Shown: positions 808 through 23,613 of the stretch, one piece after another
Numbering within the stretch: position 1 is the first letter of the stretch
Layout of the letters: the number at the start of each line of letters is the position of its first letter
Source of the DNA: a virus
DNA length: 64,000 bases
Reading direction: 5' to 3' (one strand)
IMG/VR virus record: IMGVR_UViG_3300045044_000056
Location: 11,262-75,261 of that record
Notes under the pieces: generated by a model
What the model was told of the DNA's origin: nothing
Seen by the model: the letters and a program-made list of their open reading frames with translations, nothing else
The model's database searches: none
Position numbers and translations under genes: made by a program

Positions 808-1901
808 TTACGAGCCACGATAGTCGAGAGTTCCAAAAACCCGGAGCGAGCCACGCCGGATGAGAGCACCATGCTTAAGGAGCGAGCCATAATCGCTGAG
901 AGCACCAAGCCTTAGGAGCGAGCCAATCCTGCGGAGAGCACCAAGAACGATGAGCGAGCCACTCGGCCTGAGAGCGCCACAAGAACGGAGCGAGCCACAG
1001 CCTGCGAGGGCACCATAAAGTGAGAGCGAGCCATGAGCTGTGAGAGCACCAAAGTACGGGAGCGAGCCAACCCGGGAGAGAGCACCAAGAACTGCGAGCG
1101 AGCCATTGTCTTGGAGAGTACCAAAAGTCAGGAGCGAGCCATAAGCCTGGAGAGCACCATCGGCGAGGAGCGAGCCATCGCGGAATGAGAGCACCATGCA
1201 GAGCGAGCGAGCCCATAAATCGGTGAGAGCACCAAACCCGACGAGCGAGCCAGTCCGCGCGAGAGCACCAATGCGGAAGAGCGAGCCATTGATTTGAGAG
1301 AGCACCATATCCGGTGAGCGAGCCACCGCGCATGAGAGCACCAGAAGCGTGGAGCGAGCCAGCTCGGAGGAGAGCACCAAAAACCGGGAGCGAGCCCAAT
1401 GTAATGAGAGCGCCACAAGTGAGGAGCGAGCCATTGTTTGAGAGAGCACCACGTGAAGAGAGCGAGCCAATCGTGCGGAGAGCACCAAAAAGGACGAGCG
1501 AGCCAATGCCTGAGAGAGCACCATAAGGGGCGAGCGAGCCATTGTGTTGGAGAGCACCAAGCGTGTGGAGCGAGCCATTGATGCAGAGAGCACCACGATC
1601 CCAGAGCGAGCCCTTAGGTCGGAGAGCACCAGAGAGCATGAGCGAGCCATCAGCCGAGAGAGCACCATAAGTGATGAGCGAGCCATACTACTAGAGAGCA
1701 CCAGAACCACGGAGCGAGCCAACTTCGGAGAGAGCACCAGATCAGCTGAGCGAGCCAAGGTGAACGAGAGCACCAAAGAAGCTGAGCGAGCCAATTTGAC
1801 AGAGAGCACCAAACCGTCAGAGCGAGCCAAAAGGCTTGAGAGCACCAGCATTGGAGAGCGAGCCAAAAGCAGCGAGAGCACCAAAACTCAAGAGCGCCCT
1901 G
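808..1901 (+). ncRNA. TIGR-like dual-repeat guide array 1 (29 full 36-nt units plus a degenerate leader unit)
   Basis: GAGCGAGCCA and GAGAGCACCA alternate, separated by 8-nt variable spacers, from 844 to 1891 (29x36+4 nt; three small indels near 1180, 1215 and 1295). Degenerate unit at 808-843; terminal partial repeat at 1892. Confidence 0.88.
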
Positions 1902-1905
1902 AACA

Positions 1906-2688
1906 ATGATCTCCTACTCGCATAACTTCGAAGACGTCATCCTGGCCCGCGCGCTCGGCTCGATCACCCACGGCTTCTACATCGACGTCGGCGCCGCAAC
2001 CCCCATCCACTCCTCAAACACCTACGCCTTCTATGAGCACGGCTGGTGGGGCCTCGTCGTCGACCCGCTGTTCCGCCTGTGGCCGCAGTACCGCGCCGAG
2101 TGGGAACGTACCCGCCCGCGCGACCTCCTCGCCGCCGTCGCCGCCGGTAAAGAAACTGGCCACACCGAGTTCTGGGTCGCCGGCCATATGCAGTGCTCTA
2201 CCGCCTCGCCCGAAACCCTCGCCTACTTCCGCAAGCTCGGCTCCCAGATCCCCGACCACGGAACCATCGTCAACGTCTACAGCCTCACCACCATCCTCGA
2301 CGCCACCGCAACCTCAGTCGCAGCCGCAGGCGGCCCCATCCACCTCCTCACCGTCGATGTCGAAGGCATGGAGCTCGACGTCGTCCAAGGCCTCGATCTC
2401 TCCCGCTACCGCCCCTGGATCATCCTCGCCGAAGTCACCAAGCCCGGCACCATCGAGCTGGCACCCCACGCCGCCCCGCTCTACCAGTACCTCTGCGACA
2501 AGGATTACGTCCGCGTCCTGTTCGACGGCACCAACGAGTTCTACCTCGATATCGAGCACATCGAGCTGGCGAAACACTTCAAGCTCCCACTCAACTGCCA
2601 CGACAACTTCAAGCTCTACCGCGAAGTGCTGCTCGAAAACCGCATCAAAGAACTGGAAGAAATCACCAACCCAGCCTTCGGACGATGA
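1906..2688 (+). CDS. FkbM-family SAM-dependent methyltransferase
   Basis: YSHNFED, FYIDVGA, SNTYAFYEHGWWGLVVDP and LLTVDVEGMELDVVQG motifs. Confidence 0.9.
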   Translation: MISYSHNFEDVILARALGSITHGFYIDVGAATPIHSSNTYAFYEHGWWGLVVDPLFRLWPQYRAEWERTRPRDLLAAVAAGKETGHTEFWVAGHMQCSTASPETLAYFRKLGSQIPDHGTIVNVYSLTTILDATATSVAAAGGPIHLLTVDVEGMELDVVQGLDLSRYRPWIILAEVTKPGTIELAPHAAPLYQYLCDKDYVRVLFDGTNEFYLDIEHIELAKHFKLPLNCHDNFKLYREVLLENRIKELEEITNPAFGR

Positions 2689-2909
2689 ACATGGACCGCG
2701 AAACAATCCAGACGTTGCTTGATCTGCTCAACCCGTTGCATGATGAGCTTGATCGGCAAACATATGATGAGAAGGTGCACGAGAACTTCGATGCTCCCCG
2801 CGACCGTGAGTACGAGGTCACGATCACGGAAGCGCATGAGCGCGATCTAACTCAAGCTGTCCTGATCCTAGAAGATCGTCTGCGACAGGCGAGGGCTACG
2901 AGTTCATAG
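2685..2909 (+). CDS. Hypothetical protein (74 aa)
   Basis: ATGA overlap with the FkbM stop; MNMDRETIQTLLDLL... is the plausible part of track ORF 2193-2909. Confidence 0.6.
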   Translation: MNMDRETIQTLLDLLNPLHDELDRQTYDEKVHENFDAPRDREYEVTITEAHERDLTQAVLILEDRLRQARATSS

Positions 2910-3198
2910 AGGCATAAAGGCCCGTGGACATTGATAGAACAGGAGTGGGCGATCCATGGGTGGGCTCCTTTAATTTTGAGCGAGCCGGTTGACTACTAGA
3001 ATAGCCACGATCAGCGCGACCATAACCGCCGCCTTCCATGCGCTGTCCCACGCCACCCGACGCGGCACACCCTGATAGCCGTAGGCAACGGCGTAGCGTT
3101 GCAGACCGGCAAGCGCGGCGATTGCTGCGATCCAGAACATTCAGGCCCTCTTTTATGCCGCGCGGCTACTTCTCCTTTGGGCTGAGCGTCCCCCCCCT

Positions 3199-3795
3199 TC
3201 ACGCCGCCAGCGCCCGCCGCACCGACGCAACACTCACCCCAAACCGCTCCGCTACCCCGCGCAACCCAACACCCCCAGCCCCATACGCCGCCCTGATCTC
3301 TAACGCCTTCGCCGCCCCAATCTCAACAGGCCGACCAATCGCCTTCCCAGATCGCGTCCCCTTCTCCCGCGCCCGCGCCATCCCCGCATTCACTCGCTCC
3401 CGGATGATCTCCCGCTCAAACTCCGCAAATACACCCAACATCTGAAACATCGCTCGCCCTGCCGGCGTCGTCGTGTCCAACCCCTGCTGGTGTAAATACA
3501 GCCCAGTCCTCGTCGCCCGTAAGTGCAACAAAAACGTCGTCAGATCCTGCAAACTCCGACCCAGCCGGTCCACCGACCACGCCATCACCAAATCAAACTT
3601 CCCCCGGCTCGCATCCTTGTGCAGCCGGTCAAACCCAGGCCGCCGCTCGCGACCCTTCGCCCCACTGATCCCAAGATCCTCATAAACCCCAACCACCTCG
3701 TGCCCCAGCCGCGCCGCAACCGCCCGCAGCTCCCGCTCCTGGTTCTCCGTCGTCTGATCCTTCGTGCTCACCCGCAAATACAGTACCGCGCGCAT
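3199..3795 (-). CDS. Serine recombinase (resolvase/invertase family) with C-terminal HTH
   Basis: YLRVST (catalytic Ser), ISGAKGRERRPGF, SVDRLGRS, FAEFEREIIRER. Confidence 0.95.
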   Translation of the reverse strand: MRAVLYLRVSTKDQTTENQERELRAVAARLGHEVVGVYEDLGISGAKGRERRPGFDRLHKDASRGKFDLVMAWSVDRLGRSLQDLTTFLLHLRATRTGLYLHQQGLDTTTPAGRAMFQMLGVFAEFEREIIRERVNAGMARAREKGTRSGKAIGRPVEIGAAKALEIRAAYGAGGVGLRGVAERFGVSVASVRRALAA

Positions 3796-3966
3796 ACCCT
3801 ACCTCCTCCAAATATGGGACCCATTGGCGTATTAGGGTACCGTTTCGCCAGAAGGTCCAACCATGGTTCCAGGAGGGCCCCGAGCGCGCGGCCGACTGGG
3901 GCCCCTGGAAACCTACCGTTTTGGGAATGAACATTGCTCCGCGCACCCTCCAATATGGGCGCGCGC

Positions 3967-22965: not shown

Positions 22966-23003
22966 AGGGCCATACCCCCACCCCCACCCCTTTGGACCCT
23001 TGG

Positions 23004-23029
23004 GGGCCGCCTTCGGGCGGCCCTTTTTT
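23004..23029 (+). terminator. Intrinsic terminator
   Basis: GGGCCGCC-TTCG-GGCGGCCC followed by TTTTTT. Confidence 0.85.
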
Positions 23030-23053
23030 CTTCGGCCTGGGGCTCAATAGGAA

Positions 23054-23097
23054 GGCCGCTGGTGAGCTACGCATCCTCCCGCGCTCCACCAGCGGCC
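23054..23097 (-). other. 11-bp stem-loop downstream of array 3 (possible 3' boundary of the TasA-array transcript)
   Basis: GGCCGCTGGTG (23054-23064) pairs with CACCAGCGGCC (23087-23097). Confidence 0.35.
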
Positions 23098-23306
23098 CCT
23101 CCCCCACCCCAACCAATAGACGGCCGCCGCTAGCCGGGCGGCAGGCTCTTCCGCAGTTTGCTGGCGAGCGTCCGCATGGCGTCGGCCTTGCGGTCGTGTG
23201 GCCCGGCCGTACGTGGCTCGGCACGCCCATAGGAATCGTGTCGGCTCGCTCGGGATACGAGCGCTTCGACGATCAACTCCACTTCACCGATCGATAGGTC
23301 GATTTG

Positions 23307-23613
23307 CACGCTCGCTCCCTATGGTGCTCTCTGGTTCGATGGCTCGCTCAGCGCTTCGCTCATTTCTTTTGGAACTCTCTCACAACGTGGCTCGCTCTGG
23401 CTTTGTGGTGCTCTCAGCGATTATGGCTCGCTCACGACCTTTGGTGCTCTCTCGCCGGATGGCTCGCTCACCATGTTTGGTTCTCTCATCCATGTTGGCT
23501 CGCTCATCAATTTTGGTGCTCTCCCTCGATGTGGCTCGCTCCTGCTCAATGGTGCTCTCAAGACCGCTGGCTCGCTCACCATTCATGGTGCTCTCTACTG
23601 TCGTGGCTATGTC
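23307..23613 (-). ncRNA. TIGR-like dual-repeat guide array 3 (about 8 units, distal end degenerate)
   Basis: On the + strand TGGCTCGCTC and TGGTGCTCTC alternate every 18 nt from 23370 to 23595; the first repeat overlaps the TAG of the Nop-domain gene. Confidence 0.9.

What the first reader, a model, noticed from the sequence alone, without database searches (positions are those of the whole stretch)
808..23613. Half-spacers are shuffled between the three arrays
Seen: 844-889 is identical to 5472-5517 (46 nt, unit CGCCGGAT/TGCTTAAG). The next unit keeps spacer B (AGCCTTAG) but differs in spacer A (TAATCGCT vs GAAACCGG). TAATCGCT is also spacer A of unit 6 in array 3, paired with a different B. 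The variant loop repeat GAGAGTTCCA occurs in array 1 (826) and array 3 (23370-23379). First spacers are CGATAGTC (array 1) and CGACAGTA (array 3). TAAATCGG is a B spacer in array 2 but sits in an A slot, with extra bases, in array 1 (about 1215). Near-duplicates exist within array 1 (ATCCTGCG/ATCGTGCG; a TTG... family). Inference: guides diversify by recombination or gene conversion at the repeats, producing new A+B combinations, rather than by CRISPR-like acquisition. No Cas1/2-like genes are visible.
Basis: partly seen in the sequence, partly recalled or inferred. Interest (0 to 1): 0.75.

Follow-up and report, generated by a model that had tools for sequence, protein, structure and literature searches.

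The report
Phage TIGR arrays reassort half-spacers
A temperate phage carries three arrays of two-part guide RNAs for one TasA protein (a known TIGR-Tas system), and single 8-base halves of those guides recur in other guides of the same genome with different partners, a pattern repeated across about 120 related phages that gives a first handle on how such arrays evolve.

Summary
The window is part of an 85-kb temperate tailed phage with three dual-repeat TIGR arrays and one nuclease-less tas gene (TasA). The arrays use edge repeat GAGCGAGCCA, loop repeat GAGAGCACCA, 8-nt spacers and 36-nt units. Five half-spacers are identical between arrays, against about 0.1-0.2 expected. Positions 844-925 equal 5472-5553 except for one replaced 8-nt spacer, and that spacer is identical to one in array 3.

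I collected 189 loci with the same repeats: 124 non-redundant genomes and 3,988 half-spacers. Identical half-spacers within a genome are 66-fold enriched, but only in the same slot (A or B). Of 59 isolated shares, 41 have unrelated partners. Rare variants of the flanking repeats travel with them. One phage differs from four near-identical assemblies only by one replaced half-spacer.

The half-spacer is therefore an independent, slot-faithful unit of inheritance, and A+B pairs are reassorted. The best explanation is short-tract, repeat-guided, non-reciprocal exchange plus unit duplication.

Not shown:
- whether the process is copy-paste or replacement by new sequence;
- the enzyme involved (RecT/YqaJ are present but untested);
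- where new 8-mers come from, so "rather than acquisition" is unproven.

The system is a known kind. This evolutionary behaviour is not described in the papers I searched.

The parts
808..1896 (+). TIGR array 1. It has 30 units of 36 nt: edge repeat GAGCGAGCCA, 8-nt spacer A, loop repeat GAGAGCACCA, 8-nt spacer B. It starts with the 5'-truncated edge GAGCCA and ends with the 3'-truncated edge GAGCG. An irregular junction lies at 1187-1224.
5367..5584 (+). TIGR array 2, 6 units. Its truncated edge repeat overlaps the TGA stop codon (5366-5368) of ORF 4850-5368.
23309..23607 (-). TIGR array 3. It has 7 units, then GAGCG, a 7-nt linker and one more unit. It starts on the TAG stop codon of tasA.
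23607..24464 (-). tasA, 285 aa, a Nop-domain TIGR-associated protein without a nuclease domain. It is the only copy in the 85-kb record.
   Evidence: Pfam Transposase_20, E 1.2e-6. PDB sequence matches to TaTasR 9mty (1.9e-9) and TasH 21kl (4.9e-8). Single copy in the record. Homologues lie in 122 of 198 loci that carry the same repeats.
844..925 (+). Block shared with array 2 (5472-5553). It is identical except for spacer A of the second unit (890-897).
5472..5553 (+). Copy of the shared block in array 2. The differing spacer GAAACCGG is at 5518-5525.
890..897 (+). Half-spacer TAATCGCT in an A slot. Its unit, TAATCGCT+AGCCTTAG, is a two-parent unit: its A recurs in array 3 and its B recurs in array 2.
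23416..23423 (-). The same half-spacer TAATCGCT in the A slot of unit 6 of array 3, here paired with CAAAGCCA.
826..835 (+). Rare loop-repeat variant GAGAGTTCCA in the first unit of array 1.
23370..23379 (-). The same rare loop-repeat variant in unit 7 of array 3.
1216..1223 (+). TAAATCGG in an A slot, inside a 10-nt spacer. It is identical to the last B spacer of array 2 (5572-5579).
15263..16216 (+). YqaJ-like exonuclease gene, part of the phage's own recombination module.
   Evidence: Pfam PF09588, E 1.8e-7
16086..17249 (+). RecT single-strand annealing protein gene. The start codon is uncertain.
   Evidence: Pfam PF03837, E 8.7e-38

Best explanation
The locus is a phage-borne dual-repeat TIGR-TasA system. 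One TasA, a Nop-domain RNA-guided DNA binder without a nuclease, is served by three arrays with about 44 units of 36 nt. By analogy with tested relatives, each unit is cut out as a tigRNA. Its two 8-nt spacers pair with opposite strands of a 16-bp target.

The arrays evolve at the level of the half-spacer. An 8-nt spacer, with part of its flanking 10-nt repeats, is copied or retained independently of its partner, and always in its own slot (A after the edge repeat, B after the loop repeat). New A+B pairs therefore arise from parts already present in the genome.

The most likely mechanism is short-tract, non-reciprocal, homology-guided exchange that uses the two different repeats as register. 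This could be gene conversion or template switching during phage replication. Three further processes act beside it:
- duplication of whole units;
- repeat-mediated insertions and deletions in either phase;
- point mutation of the copies.

Shown: the mosaic structure, the slot fidelity, the hitch-hiking of repeat variants and a natural single half-spacer replacement. Inferred: the direction of transfer, the enzymology, and that the reshuffled guides are used.
For: In the window:
- The 82-nt block 844-925 / 5472-5553 has 5 mismatches, all in one 8-nt spacer, and 0 of the 24 other spacer bases differ.
- That spacer is identical, with both flanking repeats (28 nt), to a spacer in array 3 on the opposite strand. 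So unit 3 of array 1 has its A in common with array 3 and its B in common with array 2.
- There are 5 identical half-spacer pairs against 0.1-0.2 expected.

In the family (189 loci with the same repeats, 124 non-redundant genomes, 3,988 half-spacers):
- Identical 8-mers within a genome in the same slot number 87 of 52,901 pairs (1.6e-3). Between genomes the rate is 2.5e-5.
- Within a genome across slots the count is 2 of 54,719 pairs, which is chance level.
- There are 59 isolated same-slot shares. Of these, 41 have a partner at 4 or more differences, like random pairs.
- There are 11 A+B unit duplicates but only 1 B+A duplicate.
- Same-slot pairs at 1 difference number 125 against 26 expected. 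At 2 differences the count is 463 against 252.
- Where repeats are informative, non-consensus flanking repeats are identical in 36% (upstream) and 35% (downstream) of isolated shares, against 8% in the background. This points to copied DNA rather than the same 8-mer acquired twice.
- L068 against L063, L011, L029 and L141: ungapped overlaps of 3.0-7.3 kb carry 6 differences inside one B half-spacer and 0-2 elsewhere. The new spacer is 1 mismatch from a B spacer 16 units downstream.
- L033/L059 and L054/L069 differ by insertions whose break points lie in loop repeats. These split a unit into new pairs.
- Three two-parent units are found against 0.8 expected.

Published work shows that swapped A and B spacers still function (PMC12045711). 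Independent acquisition from a shared half-site should therefore land in either slot, which is not what is seen.

TasA is the only gene conserved next to these arrays. No Cas1, Cas2 or reverse transcriptase is present.
Against: - Most half-spacers are unique. The window's half-spacers match other phages only at chance level, so reassortment cannot be the source of new 8-mers.
- The replaced half-spacer of L068 has no exact donor in the sequence held. Those records are only 11-25% complete.
- The same patterns arise if a unit is duplicated and one half is later overwritten by new sequence.
- Ten-base repeats are very short for RecA- or RecT-type homology searches.
- Break points do not map cleanly. 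In three isolated shares the repeat base directly next to the shared spacer differs.
- No reads, expression data or targets are available. Only two weak 1-mismatch self-matches were found.
Confidence: 0.6

Rival explanations
1. Unit duplication followed by overwriting of one half. Whole 36-nt units are duplicated, with break points in edge repeats. An unknown process then replaces single half-spacers with new sequence, that is, acquisition at half-spacer grain. Shared half-spacers would be the retained halves, not pasted ones.
For: Whole-unit duplicates are common. There are 11 exact ones, plus about 15 shares whose partner differs at only 0-3 positions. The L068 replacement brought in an 8-mer with no exact copy in the sequence held. 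Most half-spacers are unique. The two-parent unit in the window can be read as the ancestor of two derived copies.
Against: It needs more events for the window: two duplications and two replacements, against one duplication and one transfer. The L068 spacer is 1 mismatch from a same-slot spacer of its own array, with a chance of about 0.01-0.02. The excess of same-slot pairs at 1-2 differences within genomes fits copying plus mutation. No acquisition gene is conserved near the arrays.
Confidence: 0.25
2. Convergent targets. Guides are acquired or selected independently against sites that share an 8-bp half-site, such as a repeated motif, so the same half-spacer recurs with different partners.
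For: One related cluster (L083, L159, L165, L177) has families of similar spacers in which A spacers are reverse complements of B spacers. That suggests repeated targets. The window's B slots share an A-rich start.
Against: Sharing is slot-faithful, 59 same-slot shares against 2 cross-slot, although swapped spacers work equally well (PMC12045711). Rare flanking repeat variants hitch-hike with the shared spacer. There is no enrichment of identical half-spacers between unrelated phages.
Confidence: 0.06
3. Chance, given short 8-mers and biased composition.
For: With thousands of 8-mers, chance identities do occur. 13 window half-spacers match other phages, as expected by chance. The near-duplicate 'families' in array 1 are only about 2-fold enriched.
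Against: The window has 5 identical pairs against 0.1-0.2 expected under three null models. Family-wide enrichment is 66-fold, with the cross-slot pairs as an internal control.
Confidence: 0.01
4. Assembly artefact: a chimeric or mis-joined metagenomic assembly within repetitive arrays.
For: The record is a metagenome-assembled virus, and no reads are available here.
Against: Both copies of the shared block have unique flanks on both sides. A mis-join at a 46-nt repeat would delete or swap flanks, not create an 8-nt patch. The same pattern recurs in 28 of 124 non-redundant contigs from many projects. One array state was recovered unchanged in four independent assemblies.
Confidence: 0.03

Closest known systems
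Dual-repeat TIGR-TasA systems (Faure et al. 2025, PMC12045711; Xu et al. 2026 preprint, 10.64898/2026.09.09.750476)
   Same: - Two alternating short repeats that both end in CCA (box C).
- Spacers of 8-9 nt and a 36-nt unit.
[quoted passage not shown]
- A Nop-domain Tas protein without a nuclease.
- A phage location and no adaptation genes.
   Different: - One tasA serves three arrays, two of them 18-23 kb away from it.
- The repeats start with GAG rather than UG.
- The published work calls array origin and expansion unknown. Slot-faithful half-spacer sharing is not described there.
CRISPR arrays with Cas1-Cas2 adaptation
   Same: Arrays of repeats and variable guide segments that are processed into guide RNAs. 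Spacer loss and duplication occur by recombination between repeats.
   Different: - No Cas1/Cas2 is present.
- There are two different repeats and a split guide.
- No polarised leader-end addition is visible.
- The unit of change is half a guide.
Gene-conversion diversification from silent cassettes (pilin antigenic variation, trypanosome VSG mosaics, chicken immunoglobulin genes); from my own knowledge
   Same: Non-reciprocal short-tract transfer between related cassettes makes new combinations from a standing pool. Conserved flanks give the register.
   Different: - The tracts here are about 8-28 nt, with only 10-nt conserved flanks.
- No dedicated initiating enzyme or hotspot is known.
- Adaptive value is not shown.
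IS110-family bridge RNA recombinases and box C/D snoRNPs
   Same: TasA shares the Nop / IS110 C-terminal RNA-binding fold (Pfam Transposase_20; weak PDB match to IS621). The guides are bipartite.
   Different: TasA has no RuvC-like domain, and its match to the IS621 recombinase is weak and partial (E 0.38). The guides sit in arrays, not as one bridge RNA per element.

Membership tests
TIGR-Tas (dual-repeat type) | A Tas protein with a Nop domain encoded next to the array | tested here: met
   The 285-aa protein at 23607-24464(-) matches TaTasR 9mty (E 1.9e-9) and TasH (E 4.9e-8) over the Nop domain and Pfam Transposase_20. Array 3 starts at its stop codon.
TIGR-Tas (dual-repeat type) | Two distinct alternating repeats of 8-12 nt with 8-9-nt spacers, giving a 36-nt unit | tested here: met
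   GAGCGAGCCA and GAGAGCACCA alternate, with 8-nt spacers and an 18/36-nt period. Family-wide, spacer positions carry almost no information and repeat positions are highly conserved.
TIGR-Tas (dual-repeat type) | [quoted passage not shown] | tested here: met
   Both repeats end in CCA and both start with GAG. The 5' motif is GAG, not the UG of TaTasR. The source paper allows such divergence if the two repeats covary.
TIGR-Tas (dual-repeat type) | [quoted passage not shown] | tested here: met
   The arrays start with GAGCCA or GCCA and end with GAGCG. The same starts occur in 156 array starts of the family. No clear intrinsic terminator was found after arrays 1 and 2.
TIGR-Tas (dual-repeat type) | Processing into 36-nt tigRNAs and tandem-spacer pairing with both DNA strands | not testable with these tools
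   This needs small-RNA sequencing and binding assays. The C-terminal motif GHAHF aligns with GGHVDY of TaTasR, but the processing residues were not verified.
TasA subtype (no nuclease) | Absence of an HNH or RuvC domain N-terminal to the Nop domain | tested here: met
   Only about 70 residues precede the region aligned to the Nop domain. Pfam gives no nuclease family. No structure was predicted.
CRISPR-Cas | Cas1/Cas2 adaptation genes or any cas gene; one repeat type with spacers of about 30 nt | tested here: not met
   There is no Cas1 or Cas2 in the 85-kb record. The arrays have two repeat types and 8-nt spacers.
Diversity-generating retroelement | A reverse transcriptase with template and variable repeats; adenine-specific changes | tested here: not met
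   No RVT_1 match in the record. The L068 replacement changes 6 of 8 bases, not only adenines.

The most novel reading that the evidence does not exclude
TIGR arrays have an intrinsic, slot-faithful copy-and-paste process for single 8-nt half-spacers. It would be guided by the two different 10-nt repeats and might be helped by the phage's recombination proteins, by transcription or tigRNA pairing at the array, or by TasA itself. The process would act as a combinatorial generator of new 16-bp guide specificities from a small pool. It would be followed by mutation, and would take the place that Cas1-Cas2 acquisition holds in CRISPR.
Probability: 0.3. Interest if true: 0.85.

Novelty: new member of a known kind. 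Interest (0 to 1): 0.68.

Why it matters
The founding paper and a 2026 census both name the origin, upkeep and growth of TIGR arrays as unknown (PMC12045711; preprint 10.64898/2026.09.09.750476; also PMC13421893).

This locus and its roughly 120 relatives show that the half-spacer, not the guide, is the unit that is inherited, replaced and reassorted, and that it keeps to its slot. That narrows the mechanism to a repeat-registered process. It also predicts which variants to look for in evolving populations.

It further warns that many natural guides may be recombinants whose two halves did not come from one target. That would help explain why targets are so hard to find.

Finally, it gives a simple experimental system: array amplicons of a temperate phage, with and without recT or tasA.

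Tried and rejected
- Strain variants of the window's own shared unit: a 26-nt pattern found nothing in metagenome or viral contigs.
- Relatives of the window's spacers: there are only chance-level single matches in 189 loci.
- Targets of the window's guides in its own 85-kb genome: both possible spacer arrangements were tested with gaps of 0-2 bp. There is no exact hit. Two 1-mismatch hits share one arrangement, against 0.08 expected for that arrangement and about 0.55 over all six tests. This is too weak to use. The published 3' overhangs imply, by my own derivation, the other arrangement.
- A relation between spacer A and the reverse complement of spacer B within units: none family-wide.
- A conserved first spacer or leader: the first spacers are diverse.
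- A second Tas next to arrays 1 or 2: ORF 4850-5368 has no similarity to TasA, and there is one tas in the record.
- A conserved accessory gene: none of 11 neighbouring window ORFs recurs near arrays in relatives.
- Mapping conversion tracts from repeat variants: there is enrichment but no clean break points.
- Promoter and terminator scan around arrays 1 and 2: nothing above shuffled controls.
- An exact donor for the L068 replacement: only a 1-mismatch relative was found.
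Full report
WHAT IS THERE

The window is bases 11262-75261 of an 85,183-base IMG/VR virus record estimated 92% complete. It is a temperate tailed phage. It encodes:
- a tape-measure protein, tail proteins and an endolysin;
- a tyrosine integrase and a serine invertase;
- a CI/LexA-like repressor, an MT-A70 methylase, a YqaJ-like exonuclease and RecT.

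Three arrays have an 18/36-nt period:
- array 1, 808-1896 (+), 30 units;
- array 2, 5367-5584 (+), 6 units;
- array 3, 23309-23607 (-), 7 units plus one unit after a short linker.

Each unit is GAGCGAGCCA, 8 variable bases, GAGAGCACCA, 8 variable bases. [quoted passage not shown] Array 3 begins on the stop codon of a 285-aa protein. That protein matches the solved TasR (9mty, E 1.9e-9) and TasH (E 4.9e-8) over the Nop domain and Pfam Transposase_20. Only about 70 residues precede the aligned region and no nuclease family is found, so it is a TasA. It is the only tas gene in the record, and there are no further arrays. Tested TasA proteins are RNA-guided DNA binders that repress transcription (preprint 10.64898/2026.09.09.750476). 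That function is inferred here, not shown.

THE OBSERVATION

- 844-889 equals 5472-5517.
- The similarity extends to 82 nt (844-925 against 5472-5553) with five mismatches, all inside one spacer (890-897 TAATCGCT against 5518-5525 GAAACCGG). None of the other 24 spacer bases differs.
- TAATCGCT with both flanking repeats (28 nt) is identical to 23433-23406 in array 3, where it has a different partner.
- Unit 3 of array 1 therefore shares its A half with array 3 and its B half with array 2.

Among 87 half-spacers there are five identical pairs, all between arrays, against 0.08-0.22 expected under column-permuted, letter-shuffled and genome-sampled controls. Near-duplicates are only moderately enriched: 10 pairs with at most one difference against 1.8-2.8 expected. 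The loop variant GAGAGTTCCA is rare in the family, and two of its five copies are in this window.

Neither Cas1, Cas2 nor a reverse transcriptase is encoded anywhere in the record.

IS IT GENERAL?

I parsed all arrays with a tolerant chain parser. I then clustered loci that share two or more consecutive spacers, which gave 124 non-redundant genomes with 3,988 valid 8-nt half-spacers.

TasA homologues at up to 65% identity lie in 122 of 198 loci. No other neighbour of the window's arrays is conserved.

The window's half-spacers match other phages only as often as chance predicts, so spacer content turns over fast.

Identical half-spacers are distributed as follows:
- Between unrelated genomes: 2.5e-5 per pair in the same slot and 1.9e-5 across slots.
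- Within a genome, same slot: 87 of 52,901 pairs (1.6e-3), a 66-fold excess.
- Within a genome, across slots: 2 of 54,719 pairs, which is chance.

Grouped into collinear blocks, the within-genome shares give:
- 59 isolated same-slot shares (35 A, 24 B);
- 2 cross-slot shares;
- 11 whole units (A+B);
- 1 B+A pair across an edge repeat;
- 1 two-unit block.

For 41 of the 59 isolated shares the partner half differs at four or more of eight positions, like random pairs. For about 15 it differs at 0-3 positions, which marks them as whole-unit duplicates that have diverged little or not at all. 28 of the 124 genomes show at least one isolated share with an unrelated partner.

Same-slot pairs within genomes are also enriched at one difference (125 against 26 expected) and at two differences (463 against 252). 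Cross-slot pairs are barely enriched.

COPIED DNA OR THE SAME 8-MER TWICE?

Two results argue for copied DNA.

First, the sharing is faithful to the slot. Published experiments show that a tigRNA with A and B swapped still works. A half-site acquired independently could therefore sit in either slot.

Second, for isolated shares whose neighbours on both sides are unrelated, non-consensus variants of the flanking repeats are identical in 36% (upstream) and 35% (downstream) of informative pairs. The background for the same genomes is 8%. The copied tract therefore often reaches into the repeats.

Break points could not be mapped cleanly. In three cases the repeat base next to the shared spacer differs.

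A NATURAL VARIANT

L068 overlaps four other independent assemblies (L063, L011, L029, L141) over 3.0-7.3 kb without gaps. Six differences lie inside one B half-spacer (AAGTAGAG against TGGACACG), and there are 0-2 differences anywhere else.

A clean replacement of one half-spacer between intact repeats is therefore a real event, and a fast one compared with point mutation. The new 8-mer is one mismatch from a B spacer 16 units downstream in the same array, with a chance of about 0.01-0.02. No exact donor is in the sequence held, but those records are only 11-25% complete.

More diverged relatives show three further kinds of change:
- whole-unit insertions, deletions and replacements;
- point changes;
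- insertions whose break points lie in loop repeats, which split one unit into new pairs (L033/L059 and L054/L069).

Units whose A recurs in one unit and whose B recurs in another occur three times, against 0.8 expected. One of the three is the window's.

HOW IT MOST LIKELY WORKS

The half-spacer is an independent, slot-bound unit of inheritance. I take the best explanation to be short-tract, non-reciprocal, repeat-registered exchange among array positions of one genome. This could be gene conversion or template switching between copies during replication. Alongside it come unit duplication, repeat-mediated insertions and deletions in either phase, and point mutation of the copies.

The exchange between arrays 1 and 3, which lie on opposite strands, left no inversion. 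That fits a non-crossover event.

The enzyme is unknown. RecT and YqaJ are present, but ten-base repeats are very short for such proteins, and RecT is not conserved in the flanks I hold.

The main rival is unit duplication followed by overwriting of one half with new sequence from an unknown source. It explains the same patterns with more events. It cannot be excluded, and something like it, or mutation, is needed to explain where new 8-mers come from.

Chance, convergent targets and assembly error are poor explanations, for the reasons given under rival explanations.

COMPARISON AND NOVELTY

The system is an ordinary member of a known kind, dual-repeat TIGR-TasA. It has three arrays for one TasA, two of them 18-23 kb away.

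What is new is the evolutionary behaviour. The founding paper calls the emergence and expansion of arrays an enigma and notes that the dual-spacer layout makes expansion harder to explain. The 2026 census and a 2026 structural paper still call acquisition unknown. A full-text search found no paper describing shared or reshuffled half-spacers.

LIMITS

- All sequences are assemblies.
- My array parser breaks at irregular junctions and ignores spacers that are not 8 nt long.
- Clusters were defined by shared consecutive spacers.
- The direction of every event is unknown.
- No expression data or targets are available.

Noticed in passing
window 23607-23609 and 5366-5368; 156 array starts in loci L009-L207: Arrays of this family begin directly on the stop codon of the upstream ORF. 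TGA, TAG or TAA followed by GCCA forms the 5'-truncated edge repeat. This suggests read-through co-transcription with whatever gene lies upstream.
   Followed up: partly
window 1187-1224 and 23309-23331: Array 1 has an irregular junction: loop repeat, the 4 nt TGCA, then GAGCGAGCG and an edge repeat with an extra C. It resembles the 3' end of array 3 (loop repeat, TAGG, GAGCGAGCG). Array 1 may be two abutted arrays of 11 and 19 units. Many related loci also consist of several sub-arrays.
   Followed up: partly
window, B slots of all three arrays: Positions 1-3 of the B spacers are 53% A, against 31% family-wide and 28% in the window's A slots. This is a composition signature specific to this genome and to one slot.
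   Followed up: partly
about window 30768 (genome 42029, - strand), and genome 3795 outside the window: Two guides (array 1 unit 15 and array 2 unit 2) match the phage's own genome with one mismatch. Both use the arrangement reverse-complement of B, one A, then spacer A. The expected number for that arrangement is 0.08. One site lies in ORF 30246-31010 (phrog_19005, function unknown), next to the endolysin gene.
   Followed up: partly
loci L083, L159, L165, L177: A related cluster has families of A spacers (TTGGGATC-like) that are reverse complements of its B spacers (GATCCCAA-like). Its guides would therefore read tandem 8-bp repeats. Homologous spacers there differ by 1-3 bases between strains.
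   Followed up: no
window 24451-25236 (-): A 261-aa ORF with a CxxCxxCC zinc/iron-chelating domain overlaps the start of tasA by 14 bases. It is not found next to tasA in relatives.
   Followed up: partly
window 3199-3795 (-): A serine DNA invertase/resolvase gene lies between arrays 1 and 2. No link to the arrays was tested.
   Followed up: no
window 1906-2688 (+): An FkbM-type methyltransferase gene starts 10 bases after the end of array 1. It is not conserved beside arrays in relatives.
   Followed up: partly
loci L199-L207: Identical repeats occur on contigs binned to Alphaproteobacteria, Acidobacteriota, Gemmatimonadetes, Armatimonadota and Alicyclobacillus. Two of the alphaproteobacterial contigs are over 250 kb and are likely prophages. 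The repeat pair is thus conserved over a wide apparent host range, although binning of phage contigs is unreliable.
   Followed up: no
window 23607-23660 (C-terminus of TasA): The C-terminal motif GHAHF aligns with GGHVDY of TaTasR, so a phenylalanine stands where TaTasR has a tyrosine. Whether this is the tyrosine of the published Y/H processing pair was not established.
   Followed up: no
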